A stretch of 64,000 bases of DNA from a virus (Duplodnaviria; Heunggongvirae; Uroviricota; Caudoviricetes): IMG/VR virus record IMGVR_UViG_2571042690_000019; one strand, given 5' to 3'. Below the pieces are notes generated by a model, which saw nothing but the letters and a program-made list of their open reading frames with translations, did no database searches and was not told the DNA's origin. A program made the translations under genes and the position numbers. Below are positions 3,553 through 10,500 of this stretch, one piece after another (the stretch's first letter is position 1; every line of letters begins with the position of its first letter).

Positions 3553-4206
3553 CTATCCTTTCTTGAAATCGAAGTTGCCAGCAGTGGCCTGAAAGGTTCC
3601 CCCAGCCTTGAAAGCTATGTCCCCGTTAGCGGTGACAGCTATATTTTCCCCATTAACATTGATGTTGTTGGCTGATTTGACGTTAACACTCCCTCCTGCA
3701 TTCACGATTACATCAGCCGGACCAATGATATATATCTGCCCGGACTCATTCATGCCAATCCTTGAGCCTGCTGCCGTATTGGCAATTTCATAGCCGCCAC
3801 CAGCAGTTCGTACTTCAAGAATATTGTTGCGGTGAATAACGAAGTCTTTCGTTGCTGAGATTTGGGGGCGGGGAGGTGCTCCATCTACTTCCGGCGGCGT
3901 CCAGCCGTTGCCTTTGCCAGATGCTTCTGGTGCAACGTTTGGAATTCCTCCCGGTGCATCCTGAGCGGCACCAACTATCATTGGGCGTCTGGTGTCTATT
4001 CGACCGTTAACATCTAAATAAGGAAACTCTACCCAGACCAGGTCACCTTTGACTGTAGGTACAAAAGCGTTCCCGATGGGTAACTGGTATTCCGCCCAGG
4101 GTAGATCGTCATCAGGAACGCCATTCCAGTCAGGTAAAACACGGACTTGAGCACGCATAAGCCCTGCCGGGTGCACAGTTCCAACAATTTGCGCTCTACG
4201 CTTCAT
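3553..4206 (-). CDS. putative baseplate central spike / gpV-gp45-like protein
   Basis: 217 aa; N-terminal OB-like region (GDLVWVEFPYLDVNGR) then Gly/Asn-rich repetitive C-terminus typical of spike beta-helices. Family assignment is a by-eye guess. Confidence 0.35.
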   Translation of the reverse strand: MKRRAQIVGTVHPAGLMRAQVRVLPDWNGVPDDDLPWAEYQLPIGNAFVPTVKGDLVWVEFPYLDVNGRIDTRRPMIVGAAQDAPGGIPNVAPEASGKGNGWTPPEVDGAPPRPQISATKDFVIHRNNILEVRTAGGGYEIANTAAGSRIGMNESGQIYIIGPADVIVNAGGSVNVKSANNINVNGENIAVTANGDIAFKAGGTFQATAGNFDFKKG

Positions 4207-5183
4207 TTGTTAGGCACTCCCAATATCATTCGTGTTGTGTAGCCTACGCGGTCCTCAAAGTGCGCAACATTTTTTACTATCAGCTTACGGGGCATTGATT
4301 CATCAATGCGGTTTTCCTGGTCATAGCGGTATACGATAATCTCTATTACCATCCCCGGTTTTATATCAGGATTGCCTGCGACTTCTATATCCATTTTGGG
4401 GACGAGAGACAGCTGCATATTGCGAAGAGTTTCCATATCAGAGTCGGATATATAACGTACTGGGAGTGAGCTATCGCCATATTCGACGTAGCCATCGGTC
4501 ATGGAATACCCAACAAAACGATATTGATTCTTTGCTGTTGTCGCATGTTCCTGTTGGAGTAGGCGCATTTTGGACAAAGTGTATTCTGCTTTAGGGTTAT
4601 TCCCCTCGTAGGTAAATGATGGCGTTTGCTTCATCAGATCAGCCAGGGTGTAAAAGTTAAATTCCCCCCGGCATACCCAACATAATGCACCTTTGTCTCG
4701 CGCTATCTCCGAAAGCATTTTTGACGGTTTGTCACCGGCATTCAGATGATATGTAACTGCGCGTTTTAGCACGCTGCTGGTAATTTTAAGCTTGCCGGAA
4801 TATGCCTTGAATATAGCGTCTGGTGTTTTGTTGGTATGTAAATTTGTGCGCGGGGAGGGGATCTTAAACCTGCGCACGTCTTCACTGACAGCAATAACGG
4901 TAACAACATCACCAGCCAGCATTGCAGACGTAACAAAGAAATCTGTTTTAAAAGTGCCTGCATTACCGTTTGGATCGCCCATTTCAGCCACCAGCGATGC
5001 ACCGTATTTGGCTTTCCAGTCATCAATTACGGTGCCGGTAGCGTCATGAATTTCCAGTTTTAGCAAAGGGGCTTTGAGGCTGGTTTTTTCTACATATACT
5101 GCGGTAAAAATCCAGTCTCGTGGCACTTTGTTATCGTTAATGAGCACTGACTGTAGAAAATATTGTTGTAACTCCTGGGCCAC
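4203..5183 (-). CDS. hypothetical protein (same operon as spike-like gene)
   Basis: 326-aa ORF; stop overlaps downstream start (ATGA-type coupling). Confidence 0.5.
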   Translation of the reverse strand: MAQELQQYFLQSVLINDNKVPRDWIFTAVYVEKTSLKAPLLKLEIHDATGTVIDDWKAKYGASLVAEMGDPNGNAGTFKTDFFVTSAMLAGDVVTVIAVSEDVRRFKIPSPRTNLHTNKTPDAIFKAYSGKLKITSSVLKRAVTYHLNAGDKPSKMLSEIARDKGALCWVCRGEFNFYTLADLMKQTPSFTYEGNNPKAEYTLSKMRLLQQEHATTAKNQYRFVGYSMTDGYVEYGDSSLPVRYISDSDMETLRNMQLSLVPKMDIEVAGNPDIKPGMVIEIIVYRYDQENRIDESMPRKLIVKNVAHFEDRVGYTTRMILGVPNK

Positions 5184-5186
5184 TTA

Positions 5187-5954
5187 TCACCCCATAGATA
5201 TCGAGGTTTCGGTAATAATACGTTTTGCGTCCAACTCCCATGCTGTGATCACGTCTGCAATCACACTTATCGGCGCTTGTGTGGCATAAATACGCTCTTC
5301 TCCAATTGGTGCTGAAACATCCGTAAAGCCGACTTCTTTGGCATCCTGTATCGAGCAAATCAGCGGGACCGGAACACGAACAAGGTGAGTGGTTGCTTCA
5401 AATTGTGTACCTGTCATCAGGCGAAGCCGTGCGCCCAGCGAATTACACATCAGACTCATGGTCGCTTTATCAGTTGCCATTAACGTAACGTCATACGTCA
5501 GAATGGCCTGGGTGTATTCCAGTTCTGCTAAAGGCATTCCGGTATCCGGTTCGCAAAAACTGGCTACTTTTTTGCGGTCAATCTGCTGATCATCGTTGAT
5601 ATAATTGATATCCATAGTGCGTGAGATATTGACCAGGGGGAGAGCATCCCGGTTAATGTTCTGGTTTTCAGGTTTTCTCCCTTGCCCGGCATTTGCGCGA
5701 CGAACTGCTTTAAGAAACTCGATCGCATTGTCGAAACGGGCCACATAGACACGCTCTGCTGGTGGACGATTCAAGAATGACGCAAAGCGTTTTTCTTCCG
5801 GCGCGGGGGCCACCAGTAAGATATCAGAAAAAATGTTGCTGATTAGCGTCGCAAACGCGTTATCCACGTTTTCAAAGCCCGTGGTCTGGAATTTTCCTGT
5901 GCGTGAGGTTTGCCATTCACCTGTTCGCGCCAGGAGGGTTTTATTTGAAGTCAT
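5187..5954 (-). CDS. hypothetical protein
   Basis: 255-aa ORF tightly packed in the same minus-strand operon. Confidence 0.5.
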   Translation of the reverse strand: MTSNKTLLARTGEWQTSRTGKFQTTGFENVDNAFATLISNIFSDILLVAPAPEEKRFASFLNRPPAERVYVARFDNAIEFLKAVRRANAGQGRKPENQNINRDALPLVNISRTMDINYINDDQQIDRKKVASFCEPDTGMPLAELEYTQAILTYDVTLMATDKATMSLMCNSLGARLRLMTGTQFEATTHLVRVPVPLICSIQDAKEVGFTDVSAPIGEERIYATQAPISVIADVITAWELDAKRIITETSISMG

Positions 5955-6754
5955 TCGATCACTCCGTTTTGAGTCGTATCAAAATTCCTGGCTGGTATGC
6001 AGTAGTAAAGCGAACCAACATGCTGTGTGCCGTAGCTAAAAATACGGTGCACGTACCACCAGCGGCGGGCTACGCCGTTTACCATCTCTTCATTCCATTC
6101 AAGAATTGAGCCGACGGGGACGTTATTTGCTGCAATACGCAGAATCAGAACATCATCGGTTAAGCCATCCTGCTCACCGTCTGCGTCAATCGCATGGAAA
6201 GAGTCACGCCCGTCCGGGTTATCCAGCACATAAACGATTTCAGGTTCCTGGTAAGTCAGTTCGCGTTGGTTGTTATCCAGTTCAGTGAATGACTCTTCTC
6301 CTGTTTCGTCGCTGACTACCCCATATGTGCCAACATCTGGTCGATATAAGAGAGCCTGAAACGCGTCTGGGCTGGATTCAATAATCAGCATCCAGTCTGC
6401 GCGGATTTGGTCGTTAAAGGCTTTATGCCCGTTATAGCGTGCTTTTAACTGTGGAGTCGGTTCTCTGCCAGCCAGGGAAGATGGAAGTATGGCTATATCT
6501 GATTCGCCAGCATCCGGAGTAAGGCCACCGTTGCTATCAGCAAAATTATCATGGCTATCAGCTTTGGCGGCGGGTTGCTCTTCCAGAATGCTGAATGAAT
6601 CCGAACCGGTATTGCCATGTTCCGGCGCGCCTCCTGCATTCGCTTCAATCGGCGCTGGCGTTTCTCTCTGCGTGCTGTCATGTTCTGACTCCTTACTTGC
6701 CAGGTTTGCATCGTCAGCAAACCATTCGTCAAAACGGCCCATAAGCATCCTCAA
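5951..6754 (-). CDS. hypothetical protein with acidic low-complexity N-terminus
   Basis: 267-aa ORF, first gene of the 6754-to-3553 operon; stop overlaps next start. Confidence 0.5.
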   Translation of the reverse strand: MRMLMGRFDEWFADDANLASKESEHDSTQRETPAPIEANAGGAPEHGNTGSDSFSILEEQPAAKADSHDNFADSNGGLTPDAGESDIAILPSSLAGREPTPQLKARYNGHKAFNDQIRADWMLIIESSPDAFQALLYRPDVGTYGVVSDETGEESFTELDNNQRELTYQEPEIVYVLDNPDGRDSFHAIDADGEQDGLTDDVLILRIAANNVPVGSILEWNEEMVNGVARRWWYVHRIFSYGTQHVGSLYYCIPARNFDTTQNGVIE

Positions 6755-6904
6755 AGGTCGATCTGTCAGGTATCGAAAGGAAGATTTTCGGGAGATTGTG
6801 ATTTTGGATGAAGGAGGGGGAATTCATAAAATGCACTTGCGCACAGTGCAACGGTGCGCTATAGTTATGGCATTCGGTAATCATCACGGAGGATCAAATG
6901 ACTA

Positions 6905-7207
6905 ATGACCAAAAAAATTAACATAAAGGATTTCAGGGATGCGTGGCTTGATGATTTTTTTGAATTTTCAACACCACATAGAAAGATACCTCCTGATATT
7001 CATATGACATTGTCACGGAAGTTGGACATTATCAATGCCGCAACTACCTGTAAGGATTTAAGATCACCACCAGGTAATCGGTATGAGGAACTGTCAGGGA
7101 AGCTAAATGGCTATTCATCAGTAAGGGTGAATAAGCAATATAGGTTAATTTTTAAGTGGGTTAACGGAAAGGCCGAGGACTTGTATCTCGACCCTCACAA
7201 ATACTAA
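6905..7207 (+). CDS. higB: type II toxin HigB (RelE/ParE superfamily)
   Basis: 100 aa; toxin-first arrangement; C-terminal RLIFKWVNGKAEDLYLD resembles the HigB killer-protein family. Confidence 0.7.
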   Translation: MTKKINIKDFRDAWLDDFFEFSTPHRKIPPDIHMTLSRKLDIINAATTCKDLRSPPGNRYEELSGKLNGYSSVRVNKQYRLIFKWVNGKAEDLYLDPHKY

Positions 7208-7277
7208 AACAGATACCCGGTTACGGACCGGGTTCTGACCAGAGTCCACTTAATACGCACGCTAGTAAGGGCAAAAA

Positions 7278-7616
7278 ATGAAACAGGCAACCAGAAAACC
7301 GACGACCGTAGGTGATATCCTGCTGTACGAATACCTGGAGCCGTTAGAGCTGAAGATCAACGAGTTAGCAGAAATACTTCATGTTCATCGTAACACCGTA
7401 AGCGCTCTTGTTAATAACAATCGTAAGCTAACGATGGATATGGCATATCGCCTGGCAAAAGCATTCGATACTTCTGTAGATTTTTGGATTAATCTTCAGA
7501 CCGCAGTAGATCTGTGGGAAGTCGAAAATGATATGCGCGTCCAGGAAGAGTTAAGTCGTATCAATACTGCTGAAAAATTTATTTCTCAGCGGAACCTGAA
7601 TAAAAAAGCAGCCTGA
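7278..7616 (+). CDS. higA: HigA antitoxin (XRE-family HTH)
   Basis: 112 aa with HTH (INELAEILHVHRNTVSALVNNNRKLTMDMAYRLAKAF), immediately downstream of higB. Confidence 0.7.
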   Translation: MKQATRKPTTVGDILLYEYLEPLELKINELAEILHVHRNTVSALVNNNRKLTMDMAYRLAKAFDTSVDFWINLQTAVDLWEVENDMRVQEELSRINTAEKFISQRNLNKKAA

Positions 7617-7672
7617 TATAGTAAAACACATACAAAAAGCCCACTTAGCAAGTGGGCTTTCCTTTGTAATTA

Positions 7673-7873
7673 ATGAACATTAAACCTATCCGTACAGAAC
7701 AAGATTATGAGGCCGCACTGCGTGCGGTCGAACCGATGTTCGATAACGAACCGGAAATGAATACTCCGGAAGGTGATTTCTTTGAGGTTATGAGTCTTCT
7801 CATTGAGGAGTACGAGAAGAAACATTACCCAATTCAACCACCATCACCTGTTGAATCTTTTAACTATCCATAA
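7673..7873 (+). CDS. orphan antitoxin-like N-terminal domain (YgjM/HigA-type), no HTH
   Basis: 66 aa IRTEQDYEAALRAVEPMFDNEPE...LIEEYEKKHYPI resembles the N-terminal domain of YgjM-type HigA but ends before any HTH. Confidence 0.4.
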   Translation: MNIKPIRTEQDYEAALRAVEPMFDNEPEMNTPEGDFFEVMSLLIEEYEKKHYPIQPPSPVESFNYP

Positions 7874-7894
7874 TAAAAGTAATCAGGATAAGCT

Positions 7895-8623
7895 ATGATG
7901 TCAGAAAAAGTTAAAGATAATCCGTCTATAAATGAAACAGAACTAAAATCATTTTCTGAAATAATAAAAGATAAAATATTTAACAAGGTTTTTGCATATG
8001 TTGTCATTTCTTTTCTAATTTTTAACTGGAAGGATATTTTAATTATATTAAAGTCAAAGGACGACATCCTATATACATTATCTATTGTTTCTGTTGGTGG
8101 TAATGTCCCGTTCATTGATAATTGGATTGTATCCCCGTGGGTTTATCACGTTGTAATCCCATTTATTTATGGAGTATTTGCATCTGTGTTAGCTCCTGTT
8201 CTCACACTGAAGATATCTAAGCTAACAAGTAAATTATACACTGAAATAAGATATTTAGATGAAGTTGCTGATTATGATAAAAGAATAGAATTGCAAAGAA
8301 AGAAAACAAAGTTAAATCAAGCAACCAATGACGCTAAATATTCAAAACAAATCTTAGATGAAAATGAAAATAAACTTAATGACTTGGTTACGAAACAGCG
8401 AGAAATTTGTGGCGCGATAAAACTATTGCATACTGATGTTGGCAGTATTATTGAACTATATAAAAATAAGGGGGTTAGCATTGAATCTCCGCAAGATTTA
8501 TGTGATTTTATAGTCGCTATAAAAAGCACATCATTCTATAATGATGACAAGCATTTTAATAAATTGGTGTCTGATATTTCCAGTTTGTTTGATAATACTG
8601 GAATTGATCTTTCAAAAAAATGA
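7895..8623 (+). CDS. AT-rich membrane protein with C-terminal coiled coil (unknown function)
   Basis: 242 aa; three hydrophobic segments then a Lys/Asn-rich coiled-coil tail; local GC far below the rest of the window. Confidence 0.55.
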   Translation: MMSEKVKDNPSINETELKSFSEIIKDKIFNKVFAYVVISFLIFNWKDILIILKSKDDILYTLSIVSVGGNVPFIDNWIVSPWVYHVVIPFIYGVFASVLAPVLTLKISKLTSKLYTEIRYLDEVADYDKRIELQRKKTKLNQATNDAKYSKQILDENENKLNDLVTKQREICGAIKLLHTDVGSIIELYKNKGVSIESPQDLCDFIVAIKSTSFYNDDKHFNKLVSDISSLFDNTGIDLSKK

Positions 8624-8656
8624 AAGCCCAGCATAAACTACTAGGCTATGTGTGGT

Positions 8657-9850
8657 TTATGCTTTTTTTACATACTCCATGAACATTTTTTCAGCTTGTG
8701 CTGGTGGTGTTCCAGCCATGACAAGCGCATCAATGAACGCCTGCTTCTTCAGTGCGAACTGATCGGCAAGGCGTTGCTGAAGCTCCTTGTTTTTCTGTTT
8801 CTCACGTTGCAAGGCCGCTTCTTTTGCTGCCGCCCGTTTTTTCTGTGCATCTGACAACTTTCTGGCCTTGGTCAATTGGTCACGTAGTTTGTCGATCTTG
8901 CCGTTGTCCTTTGCCAGTTTTGTACTTAAAGCTGCCTGGCGCTTCTGATAGAGCCTCCATTCGCGTTTGGCGGCTTCAACGTTCGTTTTACTGCTACGAT
9001 TGCGATTAAACTCCTTCTCGTCTTCTTTTGAGAAGTGTTTGGTTGTACGGCGGCGATCGTCACCAAATGCAATTTGCGTTGCAGCCTTTTGTAGCGCACG
9101 AGCAATACTCATTTGCCAACTGGCGGACTGTAACCGCGTCATTGAGTGGATCACGTGTTTACAGGCGACGCCTTGCAGCTTCGGGTTGCGAACTTTTGGA
9201 TAGGCGTATTCTTTTGGCGGTGCCAGGGCAAAGTTACCCGCAGTGGCGATGTAACGATACCAGTATTGATGACGACCACAGTCACAATCGAAAGACACTC
9301 GCCCGGCGCACAGTGATTTAGTGATTTTGAGAGCTGATTTATCGTCTTCTGCGATGTCATCAACCATCTGATCCCATTCTTCAAAGCGTATCCGGACGAT
9401 ATGGTGCTGGTGGACGGATATATCCGATGCTTCTACGCGGATATTAATCACATTGTGGCGAAGAGATACGGGTGTAGCTCTTTTGATACCAGATCCGTCA
9501 TCCACGGCGTTATTTGCACGCTTAATATCGATTGCCTGGCTGGATGCCACCAGCTGGGCGTATGTGATGCCAGCCGTCTTGCTGTCATATTTTTCGCGCG
9601 TTTTACTCCGTAGCTTTTCGAAACCTTTCAGGTCGTCTCGCGTGAAGAACGTGCCGCCTTTTTTCTTCCCTAACTTGAGAATATCTTCGGCGGATTTGTT
9701 CCTCAGTCTACCTGGCGTCAGCGTCCGGTGAGCTTGTCGGCGCTTACGGGTTTGTTCTTTCCTGATAAGGTCGAATAAACGCGTGAAGTCCTTAGAGGAC
9801 AGGCCGTCAGTGATATAGCGCCCGTCCTGGTTTTTCAGGAAATCAGGCAT
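8657..9850 (-). CDS. hypothetical protein with SWIM-like zinc finger and basic coiled-coil C-terminus
   Basis: 397 aa; CDCGRHQYWYRY...GVACKHVIH fits CxC-Xn-CxH; C-terminal third is K/R/Q/A-rich. Confidence 0.5.
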   Translation of the reverse strand: MPDFLKNQDGRYITDGLSSKDFTRLFDLIRKEQTRKRRQAHRTLTPGRLRNKSAEDILKLGKKKGGTFFTRDDLKGFEKLRSKTREKYDSKTAGITYAQLVASSQAIDIKRANNAVDDGSGIKRATPVSLRHNVINIRVEASDISVHQHHIVRIRFEEWDQMVDDIAEDDKSALKITKSLCAGRVSFDCDCGRHQYWYRYIATAGNFALAPPKEYAYPKVRNPKLQGVACKHVIHSMTRLQSASWQMSIARALQKAATQIAFGDDRRRTTKHFSKEDEKEFNRNRSSKTNVEAAKREWRLYQKRQAALSTKLAKDNGKIDKLRDQLTKARKLSDAQKKRAAAKEAALQREKQKNKELQQRLADQFALKKQAFIDALVMAGTPPAQAEKMFMEYVKKA

Positions 9851-10365: not shown

Positions 10366-10500
10366 ATGGATGTTATCTTCGAATTATTAATGCTAATTGA
10401 TCTGTTTATGAACGCTTCATTGACCACTCAAATACTCGCGTCAATATTTTTGTTACTCTTCTACCTGGTATTGAGGGAGTTAACAAAGCTACTAATGTGA
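10366..10500 (+). CDS. small hydrophobic peptide (44 aa), possible membrane toxin-like
   Basis: ATG preceded by GGAG at about -10; MDVIFELLMLIDLFMNASLTTQILASIFLLLFYLVLRELTKLLM; below the ORF-track cutoff. Confidence 0.3.
   Translation: MDVIFELLMLIDLFMNASLTTQILASIFLLLFYLVLRELTKLLM

What the first reader, a model, noticed from the sequence alone, without database searches (positions are those of the whole stretch)
7620..8650. AT-rich islet next to higBA: orphan antitoxin N-domain plus membrane/coiled-coil protein
Directly after the intact higB-higA pair there is a 66-aa ORF that looks like only the N-terminal domain of a YgjM-type HigA antitoxin, with no HTH. It is followed 20 bp later by a 242-aa protein with three hydrophobic segments and a Lys/Asn-rich coiled-coil tail, in a stretch far lower in GC than the rest of the window. 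A foreign insert beside a toxin-antitoxin pair in a prophage is the typical setting for abortive-infection or superinfection-exclusion genes. I cannot place the membrane protein in any family I know.
Basis: partly seen in the sequence, partly recalled or inferred. Interest (0 to 1): 0.72.

Follow-up and report, generated by a model that had tools for sequence, protein, structure and literature searches.

The report
Decayed antitoxin stub plus hypervariable membrane moron
In this D6-like phage-plasmid of E. coli, the 66-aa ORF is the dead front half of a second HigA antitoxin gene, and the AT-rich 242-aa gene next to it is an intact, highly polymorphic membrane protein of unknown function that may be a phage-exclusion or defence gene.

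Summary

The window is a D6-like phage-plasmid. In P1, tail genes 25 and 7 lie 3 bp apart, so the whole 1.9-kb island is a D6-lineage insertion.

The 66-aa ORF is a deletion relic. Relatives carry a full 119-aa K-12-type HigA here, natively paired with a PF09907 HigB. In the D6 branch another higBA cassette replaced that toxin and its promoter. The orphaned antitoxin then decayed at least three separate ways, and this window lost its HTH domain and the downstream terminator hairpin.

The 242-aa gene is not a recent insert. It sat in the same slot in all 27 D6-like loci compared, always at low GC. There are at least 11 allele classes (30-79% identity) between tail genes that are nearly identical in most loci. 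dN/dS is about 0.2-0.4.

It belongs to a small uncharacterised family (PHROG 8191 and relatives). The family has two predicted TM helices, a long helical stalk and a variable C-terminus. Three of the six distant members whose surroundings were examined sit beside prophage tail or baseplate genes, and none has a conserved partner.

An exclusion or abortive-infection role is plausible but untested. Interest is moderate.

The parts
5951..6754 (-). Left flank: homologue of P1 tail gene 7 (D6 orf69).
   Evidence: D6 annotation. In P1 this gene lies 3 bp downstream of gene 25. It is 96-100% identical in most D6-like loci and 68-79% in the four most divergent.
6804..6904 (+). Left edge of the swapped-in TA cassette, carrying the likely higBA promoter and operators. 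My reading is TTGCGC (6837-6842), a 17-nt spacer, then TATAGT (6860-6865). Overlapping inverted repeats are TGCACT/AGTGCA and GCGCAC/GTGCGC.
   Evidence: Homology with the PF09907-type loci ends near 6803. The promoter is read directly from the sequence, at 8 of 12 consensus positions, so it falls below the scan threshold.
6905..7207 (+). higB, an intact RelE-fold toxin of the PF05015 family.
   Evidence: Pfam HigB-like_toxin, E 4.4e-35. It is 100% identical to D6 orf70.
7278..7616 (+). higA, an intact 112-aa HTH_3 antitoxin and partner of the PF05015 higB.
   Evidence: Pfam HTH_3, E 7e-11. It corresponds to D6 orf71.
7636..7660 (.). Hairpin terminator after higA. The T-tract is imperfect on the + strand (TTTCCTTTG) and better on the - strand.
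   Evidence: Terminator scan. RNA fold of 7628-7672 gives -17.9 kcal/mol, z = -4.9.
7673..7873 (+). The 66-aa ORF. It is the 5' remnant of a 119-aa K-12/YgjM-type higA ('HigA2', D6 orf72). It keeps only the N-terminal domain, and the HTH is deleted.
   Evidence: The DNA is identical to D6 up to 7834, has three mismatches between 7835 and 7850, and shows no homology after about 7855. tblastn covers residues 1-65 of 119. It hits PADLOC PD-Lambda-2_B and PHROG 1373/10398. The full-length relative matches PDB 5IFG HigA at E 9e-8. There is no SD sequence upstream.
7856..7894 (.). Deletion junction. About 200 bp present in D6 and other relatives is missing here: the HigA2 HTH half, its stop codon and the GCGGTC...GACCGC hairpin.
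   Evidence: Alignment to D6, junction sequences and hairpin folds in the relatives. The right edge cannot be placed exactly because the alleles differ.
7895..8623 (+). The 242-aa membrane protein gene ('mem', PHROG 8191, window-type allele of D6 orf73). The predicted layout is an amphipathic helix (13-28), TM1 (about 31-53, kinked at the invariant N44 and near-invariant W45), TM2 (81-106) running straight into a helical stalk to residue 191, then a small variable C-terminal domain.
   Evidence: ORF. GC 0.291. PHROG 8191, E 5e-121. Family search. AF2 model at pLDDT 76.7. dN/dS 0.2-0.4.
8625..8647 (.). Hairpin between the convergent mem and gene 25. It looks like a terminator on the - strand, for gene 25.
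   Evidence: Terminator scan. The - strand fold gives -13.0 kcal/mol, z = -3.35; the + strand fold is weak.
8657..9850 (-). Right flank: homologue of P1 tail gene 25 (D6 orf74).
   Evidence: 99.5% identical to D6 and 57% to P1 gp25. Annotation.

Best explanation
The region is the right-hand part of a 1.9-kb accessory island (about 6804-8650). In the D6 lineage this island sits, in antisense orientation, between tail genes that are contiguous in P1. It contains two things with separate histories.

(1) The 66-aa ORF is a gene remnant.
- The ancestral module at this slot was higB (PF09907), then a 119-aa K-12-type higA, then a hairpin, then the membrane gene.
- In the D6 branch a different cassette replaced the old promoter, operators and toxin. 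That cassette carries its own promoter, a PF05015 higB, an HTH_3 higA and a terminator.
- The old antitoxin was left orphaned, with no SD sequence, no operator and no cognate toxin.
- In the window's sub-lineage a deletion of about 200 bp then removed its HTH domain and the hairpin behind it.
- The stub is most likely non-functional.

(2) The 242-aa gene is an intact, autonomous accessory gene.
- It encodes an inner-membrane protein that I predict to be N-in/C-in. It has a conserved two-helix membrane domain with polar residues N44 and W45 in TM1 and P89 and P101 in TM2. It also has a long cytoplasmic helical stalk and a variable C-terminal domain.
- Its most likely role is in conflict with other phages. 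It could act by superinfection exclusion at the inner membrane, or by abortive infection with the variable cytoplasmic part as sensor and the membrane hairpin as effector. The many old alleles would be kept in circulation by recombination in the conserved flanks, namely the second higA on the left and gene 25 on the right.
- In this window it has no recognisable promoter of its own. It is probably transcribed by read-through from the higBA promoter.

Shown: the anatomy, the homologies, the deletion, the repeated decay of the orphan antitoxin, the allele diversity, the purifying selection and the prophage context of relatives.
Inferred: the topology, expression in the lysogen and the exclusion or defence function.

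Confidence by part: the remnant reading about 0.9; mem as an autonomous accessory membrane protein about 0.8; a specifically anti-phage role about 0.4.
For: Context.
- The region is 100% identical to E. coli plasmid NZ_AP019805 and 88.8% identical to phage D6.
- In P1, genes 25 and 7 are 3 bp apart in one late operon.

The remnant.
- D6 has a full 119-aa orf72. The window is identical to it up to 7834, has three mismatches between 7835 and 7850, and then diverges.
- Full-length HigA2 matches K-12 HigA, PDB 5IFG, at E 9e-8.
- In 9 loci HigA2 lies 4 bp after a PF09907 HigB. In the two such junctions whose sequence I read (L002, L004) a GGAG SD sits upstream of the start codon. The operator TCCCAnnnTGGGA lies upstream in 8 of those 9 loci, in two copies in 7 of them.
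- The window has none of these features.
- Orphan copies were inactivated in three independent ways: the deletion here, a nonsense codon in L028 and a frameshift in L033. All 9 copies next to a PF09907 HigB are intact.

The membrane gene (mem).
- It lies directly downstream of HigA2 in 27 of 27 D6-like loci. This includes a divergent element whose TA pair is only 26% identical.
- All alleles have GC 0.28-0.35.
- There are 11 allele classes below 80% identity, some of them mosaic, and one allele class occurs with both TA cassettes.
- dS is saturated and dN/dS is 0.2-0.4.
- The family has 50 representatives among 1.84 billion proteins. N44, P89 and P101 are invariant.
- The AF2 model reached pLDDT 76.7.
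- Of the six distant homologues whose surroundings were looked up, three lie beside prophage tail or baseplate genes: a P2-like prophage between V and S, and two prophage ends. All six are lower in GC than their surrounding locus, and none has a conserved partner.
- mem stays intact where HigA2 is broken, in the window type, L028 and L033.
- No sigma-70 match of at least 8 of 12 lies in 7600-7900.
Against: - There is no direct evidence of any phenotype.
- mem does not match any PADLOC, Pfam or NCBIfam model. PDB sequence search and fold searches return only generic coiled coils.
- A published screen of P1/D6 phage-plasmids found a complete known defence system in only one D6-like element (10.1101/2025.09.12.675607). 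That screen can only find known systems.
- Expression in the lysogen is unproven. In this window the gene lies behind a terminator and has no visible promoter.
- mem is pseudogenised in 2 of 27 loci (L032, L035), so it is dispensable.
- The high allele diversity could reflect old neutral divergence plus recombination rather than selection.
- The three-versus-zero decay pattern of HigA2 rests on too few lineages to be statistically significant.
- The stub is intact in all 10 window-type copies examined, but they are nearly clonal.
Confidence: 0.5

Rival explanations
1. The membrane protein serves the phage's own life cycle, for example lysis timing, a holin or antiholin-like role, tail or baseplate assembly at the membrane, or help with DNA delivery. 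On this view it is not a defence against other phages.
For: It sits inside the tail and baseplate gene cluster in D6-like and in P2-like elements. The two-TM N-in/C-in layout resembles class II holins in topology only.
Against: P1, which has homologous tail genes, lacks it entirely. It is antisense to the late operon and bracketed by hairpins. It is disrupted in 2 of 27 loci whose flanking tail genes remain highly similar. Eleven allele classes sit between tail genes that are nearly identical in most loci, which is not how assembly factors evolve. At 242 aa with a stalk of more than 80 residues it is unlike known holins.
Confidence: 0.15
2. The membrane protein is a lysogenic-conversion factor acting on the host envelope, affecting fitness, stress tolerance, colonisation, or resistance to colicins or conjugation. 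Its role would then have nothing specific to do with phages.
For: It has the accessory position, the AT richness and the standalone occurrence in prophages and islands expected of such a gene. No defence model matches it.
Against: Extreme allelic polymorphism with mosaic alleles at one locus is more typical of conflict or specificity loci. Most of the protein is predicted to be cytoplasmic rather than surface-exposed. Nothing tested here discriminates firmly between this reading and the preferred one.
Confidence: 0.15
3. The 66-aa stub is still useful. As a free toxin-binding N-domain it could neutralise PF09907 HigB toxins brought in or left behind by competing D6-like elements, acting as an anti-addiction module. 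Alternatively it persists only because it is the homology anchor for allele exchange.
For: In K-12 HigA the N-terminal domain is the one that contacts HigB. This is my recollection of the published 5IFG structure and was not tested here. Sibling elements carrying PF09907 HigB with a 97-100% identical HigA2 N-domain circulate in the same hosts. The ORF is open in all 10 window-type copies. HigA2 DNA is the conserved segment between two variable modules.
Against: There is no SD sequence and the start codon lies 12 nt after a terminator hairpin. Other orphan copies carry nonsense or frameshift mutations. The window-type copies are nearly clonal, so an intact ORF says little. The last 5 residues are junction-derived.
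Confidence: 0.1
4. HigA2 (or its stub) and the membrane protein form one functional unit. That unit could be an antitoxin with a membrane toxin, or an HTH regulator controlling an abortive-infection effector.
For: The two genes are adjacent in 27 of 27 D6-like loci. This holds even in a divergent element with a different K-12-like HigBA pair.
Against: A hairpin separates the two genes in every full-length variant inspected. mem is intact where HigA2 is truncated, nonsense-mutated or frameshifted. HigA2's operators are found only upstream of PF09907 higB, never near mem. None of the six distant mem homologues examined has an HTH or HigA neighbour. HigA2 occurs with its HigB but without mem in a P1-like plasmid.
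Confidence: 0.05

Closest known systems
Phage D6 orf72 and orf73 (MF356679; annotated 'HigA family addiction module anti-toxin' and 'hypothetical protein')
   Same: Same slot between the gene 7 and gene 25 homologues, with the same upstream PF05015 higB and HTH_3 higA at 100% protein identity. The window's stub is identical to the first 54 codons of orf72 and similar through about codon 61. orf73 is the same length as mem (242 aa) and 60% identical.
   Different: D6 keeps the full 119-aa orf72 with its HTH and the hairpin behind it. The window lacks about 200 bp here. The mem allele is a different class, and the first 18 residues are unrelated.
E. coli K-12 HigA (YgjM; PDB 5IFG, 5YCL) with HigB (YgjN, PF09907)
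   Same: Full-length HigA2 of the relatives aligns over both domains with K-12 HigA (E 9e-8). In 9 of the 27 D6-like loci it is preceded by a PF09907 HigB, with palindromic operators upstream in 8 of them. Autoregulation through palindromes is described for K-12 higBA (PMC11980606).
   Different: The window ORF has only the N-domain. It has no HTH, no PF09907 toxin and no operators.
Prophage superinfection-exclusion proteins encoded inside or beside tail genes (HK97 gp15, P22 SieA, T4 Imm; cited from my own knowledge)
   Same: Small to medium inner-membrane proteins encoded by temperate phages as non-essential accessory genes, in HK97 within the tail gene cluster. The position and predicted membrane localisation match.
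   Different: No sequence or fold similarity was detected. Most of mem is a predicted cytoplasmic stalk rather than a periplasmic domain. No exclusion phenotype is known.
Membrane-acting abortive-infection effectors (lambda RexB; two-TM effectors of CBASS or retron-type systems)
   Same: A two-helix membrane domain with conserved polar residues joined to a variable cytoplasmic part, and carriage on a prophage.
   Different: Only 1 of 31 family members touched a PADLOC '2TM effector' model, at E 4e-4. There is no partner sensor gene, and neither toxicity nor depolarisation has been shown.
PD-Lambda-2 component B (PADLOC PDLC03982)
   Same: Its first 119 positions are homologous to HigA2 (E 4e-43 for D6 orf72, E 2.5e-16 for the stub).
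   Different: Component B is a 402-position protein with further domains and works with components A and C. None of that is present here.

Membership tests
HigA antitoxin, K-12/YgjM type (applied to the 66-aa ORF) | N-terminal domain homologous to the HigA N-domain | tested here: met
   PADLOC PD-Lambda-2_B positions 1-65, E 2.5e-16. PHROG 1373, E 8e-19. 91% identical to D6 orf72 residues 1-65.
HigA antitoxin, K-12/YgjM type (applied to the 66-aa ORF) | C-terminal XRE-type HTH DNA-binding and dimerisation domain | tested here: not met
   No Pfam HTH hit. Homology to the 119-aa protein stops at residue 61-65.
HigA antitoxin, K-12/YgjM type (applied to the 66-aa ORF) | Cognate PF09907 HigB encoded immediately upstream, with translational coupling | tested here: not met
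   The upstream toxin is of the PF05015 type and has its own antitoxin. The stub follows a terminator and has no SD sequence.
HigA antitoxin, K-12/YgjM type (applied to the 66-aa ORF) | Palindromic operators in its own promoter | tested here: not met
   TCCCAnnnTGGGA lies upstream of PF09907 higB in relatives (two copies in 7 loci, one in L029). The window has no exact match, and one 1-mismatch hit at chance level.
Type II HigBA module (applied to 6905-7616) | RelE-fold HigB toxin followed by an HTH antitoxin, both intact | tested here: met
   PF05015, E 4e-35, and HTH_3, E 7e-11. Both are 100% identical to D6 orf70 and orf71. Toxicity and neutralisation were not tested.
PHROG 8191 and related PHROGs 13369, 4780, 35327, 22645 (all of unknown function) | Full-length profile match | tested here: met
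   E 5e-121 over residues 1-242. All 42 aligned relatives hit PHROG 8191, and 36 and 32 of them hit PHROGs 13369 and 4780.
Superinfection-exclusion proteins (HK97 gp15, P22 SieA, T4 Imm type) | Prophage-encoded non-essential accessory gene | tested here: met
   Absent from P1, antisense within the tail operon, AT-rich, and disrupted in 2 of 27 loci.
Superinfection-exclusion proteins (HK97 gp15, P22 SieA, T4 Imm type) | Inner-membrane localisation | tested here: inconclusive
   Two strong hydrophobic helices and a lysine distribution that suggests N-in/C-in. This is prediction only, and no dedicated topology predictor was available.
Superinfection-exclusion proteins (HK97 gp15, P22 SieA, T4 Imm type) | Sequence or fold homology to a characterised exclusion protein | tested here: not met
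   No annotated PHROG, PADLOC, Pfam, PDB or BFVD match beyond coiled-coil noise.
Superinfection-exclusion proteins (HK97 gp15, P22 SieA, T4 Imm type) | Blocks DNA entry or infection by specific phages when expressed in the lysogen | not testable with these tools
   Needs plating, adsorption and DNA-injection assays.
Known anti-phage defence systems (PADLOC-DB v2) | Match to any defence protein model | tested here: not met
   The window protein has no hit. Hits of relatives to LmuB and JetC models lie in coiled-coil regions.
PD-Lambda-2 | Full-length component B together with components A and C | tested here: not met
   Only positions 1-65 (stub) or 1-119 (D6 orf72) of the 402-position B model are matched, and no other PD-Lambda-2 model is hit.

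The most novel reading that the evidence does not exclude
The 242-aa protein may define a new single-gene family of membrane-acting anti-phage or exclusion proteins carried in tail-cluster accessory slots of phage-plasmids and of P2-like and lambdoid prophages. In D6-like elements its expression would be gated by a toxin-antitoxin promoter through a leaky terminator. Infection-induced loss of antitoxin would then both free HigB and raise the level of the membrane effector. The many ancient, recombining alleles would be specificity variants kept by frequency-dependent selection.
Probability: 0.12. Interest if true: 0.65.

Novelty: new member of a known kind. Interest (0 to 1): 0.4.

Why it matters
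D6-like phage-plasmids occur in about 2% of complete E. coli genomes (95 of 5,426 matched this region) and also in Salmonella and Shigella. Current defence finders report almost nothing in them.

The mem locus is a single gene with at least 11 deeply diverged alleles held between tail genes that are nearly identical in most loci. It has relatives in the S-V slot of a P2-like prophage. That makes it a concrete and cheap candidate for a new exclusion or defence family. The natural allele series could be tested for specificity directly.

The TA part is an example of cassette replacement followed by repeated decay of the orphaned antitoxin. It also matters for annotation, because RefSeq labels an HTH-less stub as 'helix-turn-helix domain-containing protein'.

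If mem has no phage-related phenotype, the region is simply an ordinary accessory island.

Tried and rejected
- **Family libraries.** Pfam, NCBIfam and PADLOC scans of the 242-aa protein and of 31-42 relatives gave only coiled-coil matches such as ZapB, LmuB, JetC and SMC. I rejected these as compositional.
- **PDB by sequence.** A profile search of PDB sequences returned coiled coils only, the best being an Smc6 segment at E 6e-5.
- **Structure prediction.** The first AF2 run, with 4 sequences, was too poor to use (pLDDT 54). The second, with 42 sequences, was usable (pLDDT 76.7).
- **Related loci.** The profile alignment was too divergent to seed the search. A closer alignment found 22 viral loci but none in genome contigs.
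- **tblastn of distant homologues against phage records.** This returned only 'hypothetical protein'.
- **Neighbours of distant homologues.** PADLOC gave nothing convincing for them.
- **Rfam scan of 6500-9000.** Only sub-threshold hits on the terminator hairpin.
- **P1 late-promoter match.** A 9-mer at the higB start matches the -22 box of P1 late promoter LP26. I dismissed it because about 0.5 such matches are expected by chance in 64 kb.
- **D6 genome paper.** PMC5800970 is not held in the library.
- **The HigA2-plus-mem pair idea.** Considered and rejected; see the rival explanations.
Full report
**Observation.** They are higB at 6905-7207 (Pfam HigB-like_toxin, E 4e-35), higA at 7278-7616 (HTH_3, E 7e-11), a 66-aa ORF at 7673-7873 and, 21 nt later, a 242-aa ORF at 7895-8623 (Pfam results). 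GC falls to 0.25-0.33 over 7800-8650, against about 0.49 on either side. At GC 0.291 the 242-aa gene is the lowest of all 729-bp windows in the 64 kb (mean 0.480, sd 0.035). The hydropathy scan gives two strong hydrophobic segments, at about 32-52 and 81-106. The stretch around 58-70 did not reach the scan threshold. The tail is rich in K, L and D, with modest heptad periodicity (29 of 500 shuffles reach the observed score).

**Context.** The region is 100% identical to E. coli plasmid NZ_AP019805. It is 88.8% identical, in two aligned pieces, to phage D6, where the genes are orf70-orf73 lying between homologues of P1 tail genes 7 and 25. In P1 itself, genes 26-25-7-24-6-5 form one late operon, and genes 25 and 7 are only 3 bp apart. 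P1-group phage records have no tblastn match to the 242-aa protein. The whole island, about 6804-8650, is therefore a D6-lineage insertion. It lies antisense to the tail operon and is bracketed by hairpins. Among 5,426 complete E. coli genomes, 95 have a match to 7620-8650 and 51 carry the full window-type version. All matches are on plasmids.

**The 66-aa ORF.**
- D6 encodes a full 119-aa protein at this position. The window DNA is identical to D6 from higA up to 7834, has three mismatches between 7835 and 7850, and loses homology after about 7855.
- The 119-aa protein is a two-domain HigA of the E. coli K-12 (YgjM) type. It matches PDB 5IFG and 5YCL at E about 9e-8 over both domains. It also matches PADLOC PD-Lambda-2_B positions 1-119 (E 4e-43), while the stub matches only positions 1-65 (E 2.5e-16).
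- I compared 27 D6-like loci: the window, D6, one metagenome contig, two plasmids and 22 IMG/VR contigs.
  - In 9 of them, HigA2 lies 4 bp after a PF09907 HigB. The two such junctions I read (L002, L004) have a GGAG SD. Copies of the palindrome TCCCAnnnTGGGA lie upstream in 8 of the 9, two copies in 7 of them.
  - In 17, including D6 and the window, that promoter and toxin are replaced by a cassette. It carries its own promoter, a PF05015 higB, an HTH_3 higA and a hairpin terminator. Homology with the other type resumes at the HigA2 start codon.
  - The remaining locus, the divergent L034, has its own K-12-like HigBA pair.
- In the replaced arrangement HigA2 has no SD sequence and no cognate toxin. 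The window has no operator copy at all.
- Orphan HigA2 has been inactivated at least three separate ways. These are the roughly 200-bp deletion in the window type, a stop at codon 69 in L028 and a frameshift near codon 53 in L033. All nine copies next to a PF09907 HigB are intact.
- I therefore read the 66-aa ORF as a decaying remnant. It is open in all ten window-type copies examined, but those copies are nearly clonal.
- The deletion also removed a hairpin (GCGGTC-TGGAT-GACCGC followed by a T-run; -11.6 to -15.9 kcal/mol). In the full-length variants inspected, this hairpin or an analogous one separates HigA2 from the next gene.

**The 242-aa gene (mem).**
- *Family.* It hits PHROG 8191 (unknown function) at E 5e-121 and nothing in Pfam, NCBIfam or PADLOC. 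A word-indexed search of 5.8 billion proteins found only 7 clusters. An exhaustive HMMER search of 1.84 billion representatives found 50 at E below 1e-3. The relatives share the N-terminal membrane domain. N44, P89 and P101 are invariant, and S39, W45 and S54 are nearly so.
- *Structure.* With 42 sequences, AlphaFold2 gave pLDDT 76.7. The model has an amphipathic helix (13-28), a TM helix (31-53) kinked at N44-W45, and a short helix (58-65). A single helix then runs from 81 to 191 (TM2 plus stalk, pLDDT above 90 for 110-170), followed by two small C-terminal helices. Lysines flank the cytoplasmic ends in the pattern expected for N-in/C-in; this is an inference. Searches of PDB sequences, BFVD and PDB folds returned only generic long helices.
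- *Evolution.* In all 27 D6-like loci a mem allele lies directly downstream of HigA2. This includes L034, whose tail genes are only 68-82% identical and whose HigB is only 26% identical. Every allele has GC 0.28-0.35. The 18 intact sequences fall into 11 classes below 80% identity, with between-class identity of 30-79%. In most loci the flanking tail genes are 96-100% identical. Synonymous sites between classes are saturated (dS above 1) and dN/dS is 0.2-0.4, so these are old, functional alleles. Against the window allele, the membrane domain is 48-64% identical and the stalk 17-54%. Alleles are mosaic: L004 resembles L002 at its N-terminus and L003 thereafter. The L003-class allele occurs with both TA cassettes. 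The modules therefore reassort, and the highly conserved HigA2 sequence and gene 25 could supply the homology for that recombination, though no crossover point was mapped. mem is disrupted in two loci, L032 and L035.
- *Relatives elsewhere.* I looked up the surroundings of six distant members.
  - One lies in a P2-like prophage between baseplate gene V and tail gene S, antisense to them.
  - Two lie at prophage ends beside tail genes or a resolvase.
  - One lies among IS elements and resolvases.
  - One lies in a soil island with a methylase and H-NS.
  - One is chromosomal.
  - All six are lower in GC than their surrounding locus, and none has a conserved neighbour or an HTH partner.

**Mechanism.** What is shown is that mem is an intact, selectively maintained, autonomous accessory gene. 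It encodes a predicted two-TM protein with a long stalk, it is extremely polymorphic, and it is typically carried in accessory slots of temperate elements.

What I infer is that it is expressed from the prophage and acts at the inner membrane in conflicts with other phages or related elements. One possibility is that it blocks entry (exclusion). The other is that it acts as a sensor-effector, with the variable cytoplasmic stalk and C-terminus as the specificity part and the conserved polar TM hairpin as the effector.

In this window no sigma-70-like site of at least 8 of 12 lies in 7600-7900. The only plausible + strand promoter is the higBA one near 6837-6865, which is my own reading of the sequence. 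mem is therefore probably transcribed by read-through of the 7636-7660 hairpin, whose U-tract is interrupted. That would couple mem to an autoregulated TA promoter, but this coupling is speculative.

**Rivals.**
- A HigA2-mem functional pair is largely excluded. A hairpin lies between the two genes, mem is intact where HigA2 is broken, the operators occur only upstream of higB, and the distant homologues stand alone. HigB-HigA2 also occurs without mem in a P1-like plasmid.
- A role in the phage's own life cycle is unlikely. The gene is absent from P1, antisense to the late operon, occasionally pseudogenised and highly diverse in allele class.
- A host-directed conversion role cannot be excluded.
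- The stub might still bind PF09907 HigB from sibling elements and so act as an anti-addiction module. That rests on my recollection that the K-12 HigA N-domain contacts HigB, and the missing translation signals argue against it.

**Comparison and novelty.** The sequences themselves are already in databases as D6 orf72 and orf73 and as PHROGs 10398 and 8191. A recent survey found essentially no known defence systems in D6-like elements (10.1101/2025.09.12.675607). The TA replacement and decay story is ordinary, if unusually clear. The membrane protein belongs to no characterised family. If it proves to be an exclusion or abortive-infection protein, it would be a new family of a known kind. I score interest at 0.4. 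It is a good, cheap experimental candidate with a ready-made allele series, but nothing yet shows a function, and unknown genes in such accessory slots are common.

Noticed in passing
window 5951-9850; L045 (P1 NC_005856) 3620-5569: The island splits what is a single late operon in P1 (26-25-7-24-6-5, promoter LP26). Terminator-like hairpins on the - strand lie at 8647-8625, 7662-7634 and 7233-7215. It is unclear how gene 7 and the genes downstream of it are transcribed late in D6-like phages. Either they have a new promoter in 6755-6900 or transcription reads through the island antisense, which would also silence higBA and mem during lytic growth.
   Followed up: partly
window 7673-7873; RefSeq plasmids such as NZ_CP047663: Current RefSeq annotation labels the 66-aa stub 'helix-turn-helix domain-containing protein' although it lacks the HTH. 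Many other records do not annotate it at all.
   Followed up: yes
window 10366-10500: A 44-aa, very hydrophobic ORF (MDVIFELLMLIDLFMNASLTTQILASIFLLLFYLVLRELTKLLM) sits in a second local GC dip (0.36) between the gene 26 homologue and mat. It matches the position and size of D6 orf77, annotated 'hypothetical'. It may be another small membrane peptide.
   Followed up: no
L037 5833-6576 (- strand), a P2-like prophage: Next to the distant mem homologue, in the slot between V and S, lies a 247-aa Cys-rich ORF with motifs resembling an HNH nuclease (CGSDNEITKEHVLPQW, CKTCNSDL). It has only a marginal PADLOC hit, to PDC-M01B at E 0.008.
   Followed up: partly
L005 (NZ_CP128972, a P1-like plasmid) 3627-4367: The PF09907 HigB-HigA2 pair, with both operators, occurs without mem at a different locus, next to c1 and a site-specific integrase. 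It is flanked by two icd/antirepressor pairs in opposite orientation.
   Followed up: no
plasmid NZ_CP134379.1 34344-37579 (hit H35): One window-type copy is interrupted by an IS3-family transposase within the 1.9-kb island. The exact insertion point was not determined.
   Followed up: no
L032 3889-4634; L035 4001-4402: The membrane gene is disrupted in two D6-like IMG/VR contigs. One has a frameshift or indel near residue 165, and the other has lost the 3' half. The flanking tail genes remain highly similar (96-100% identity) in both.
   Followed up: partly
L004 4428-5159 compared with L002 and L003: The mem allele in L004 is mosaic. Its first 60 or so alignment columns are 87-89% identical to the L002 class, and the remainder is closer to the L003 class. 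This shows recombination within the gene itself.
   Followed up: yes
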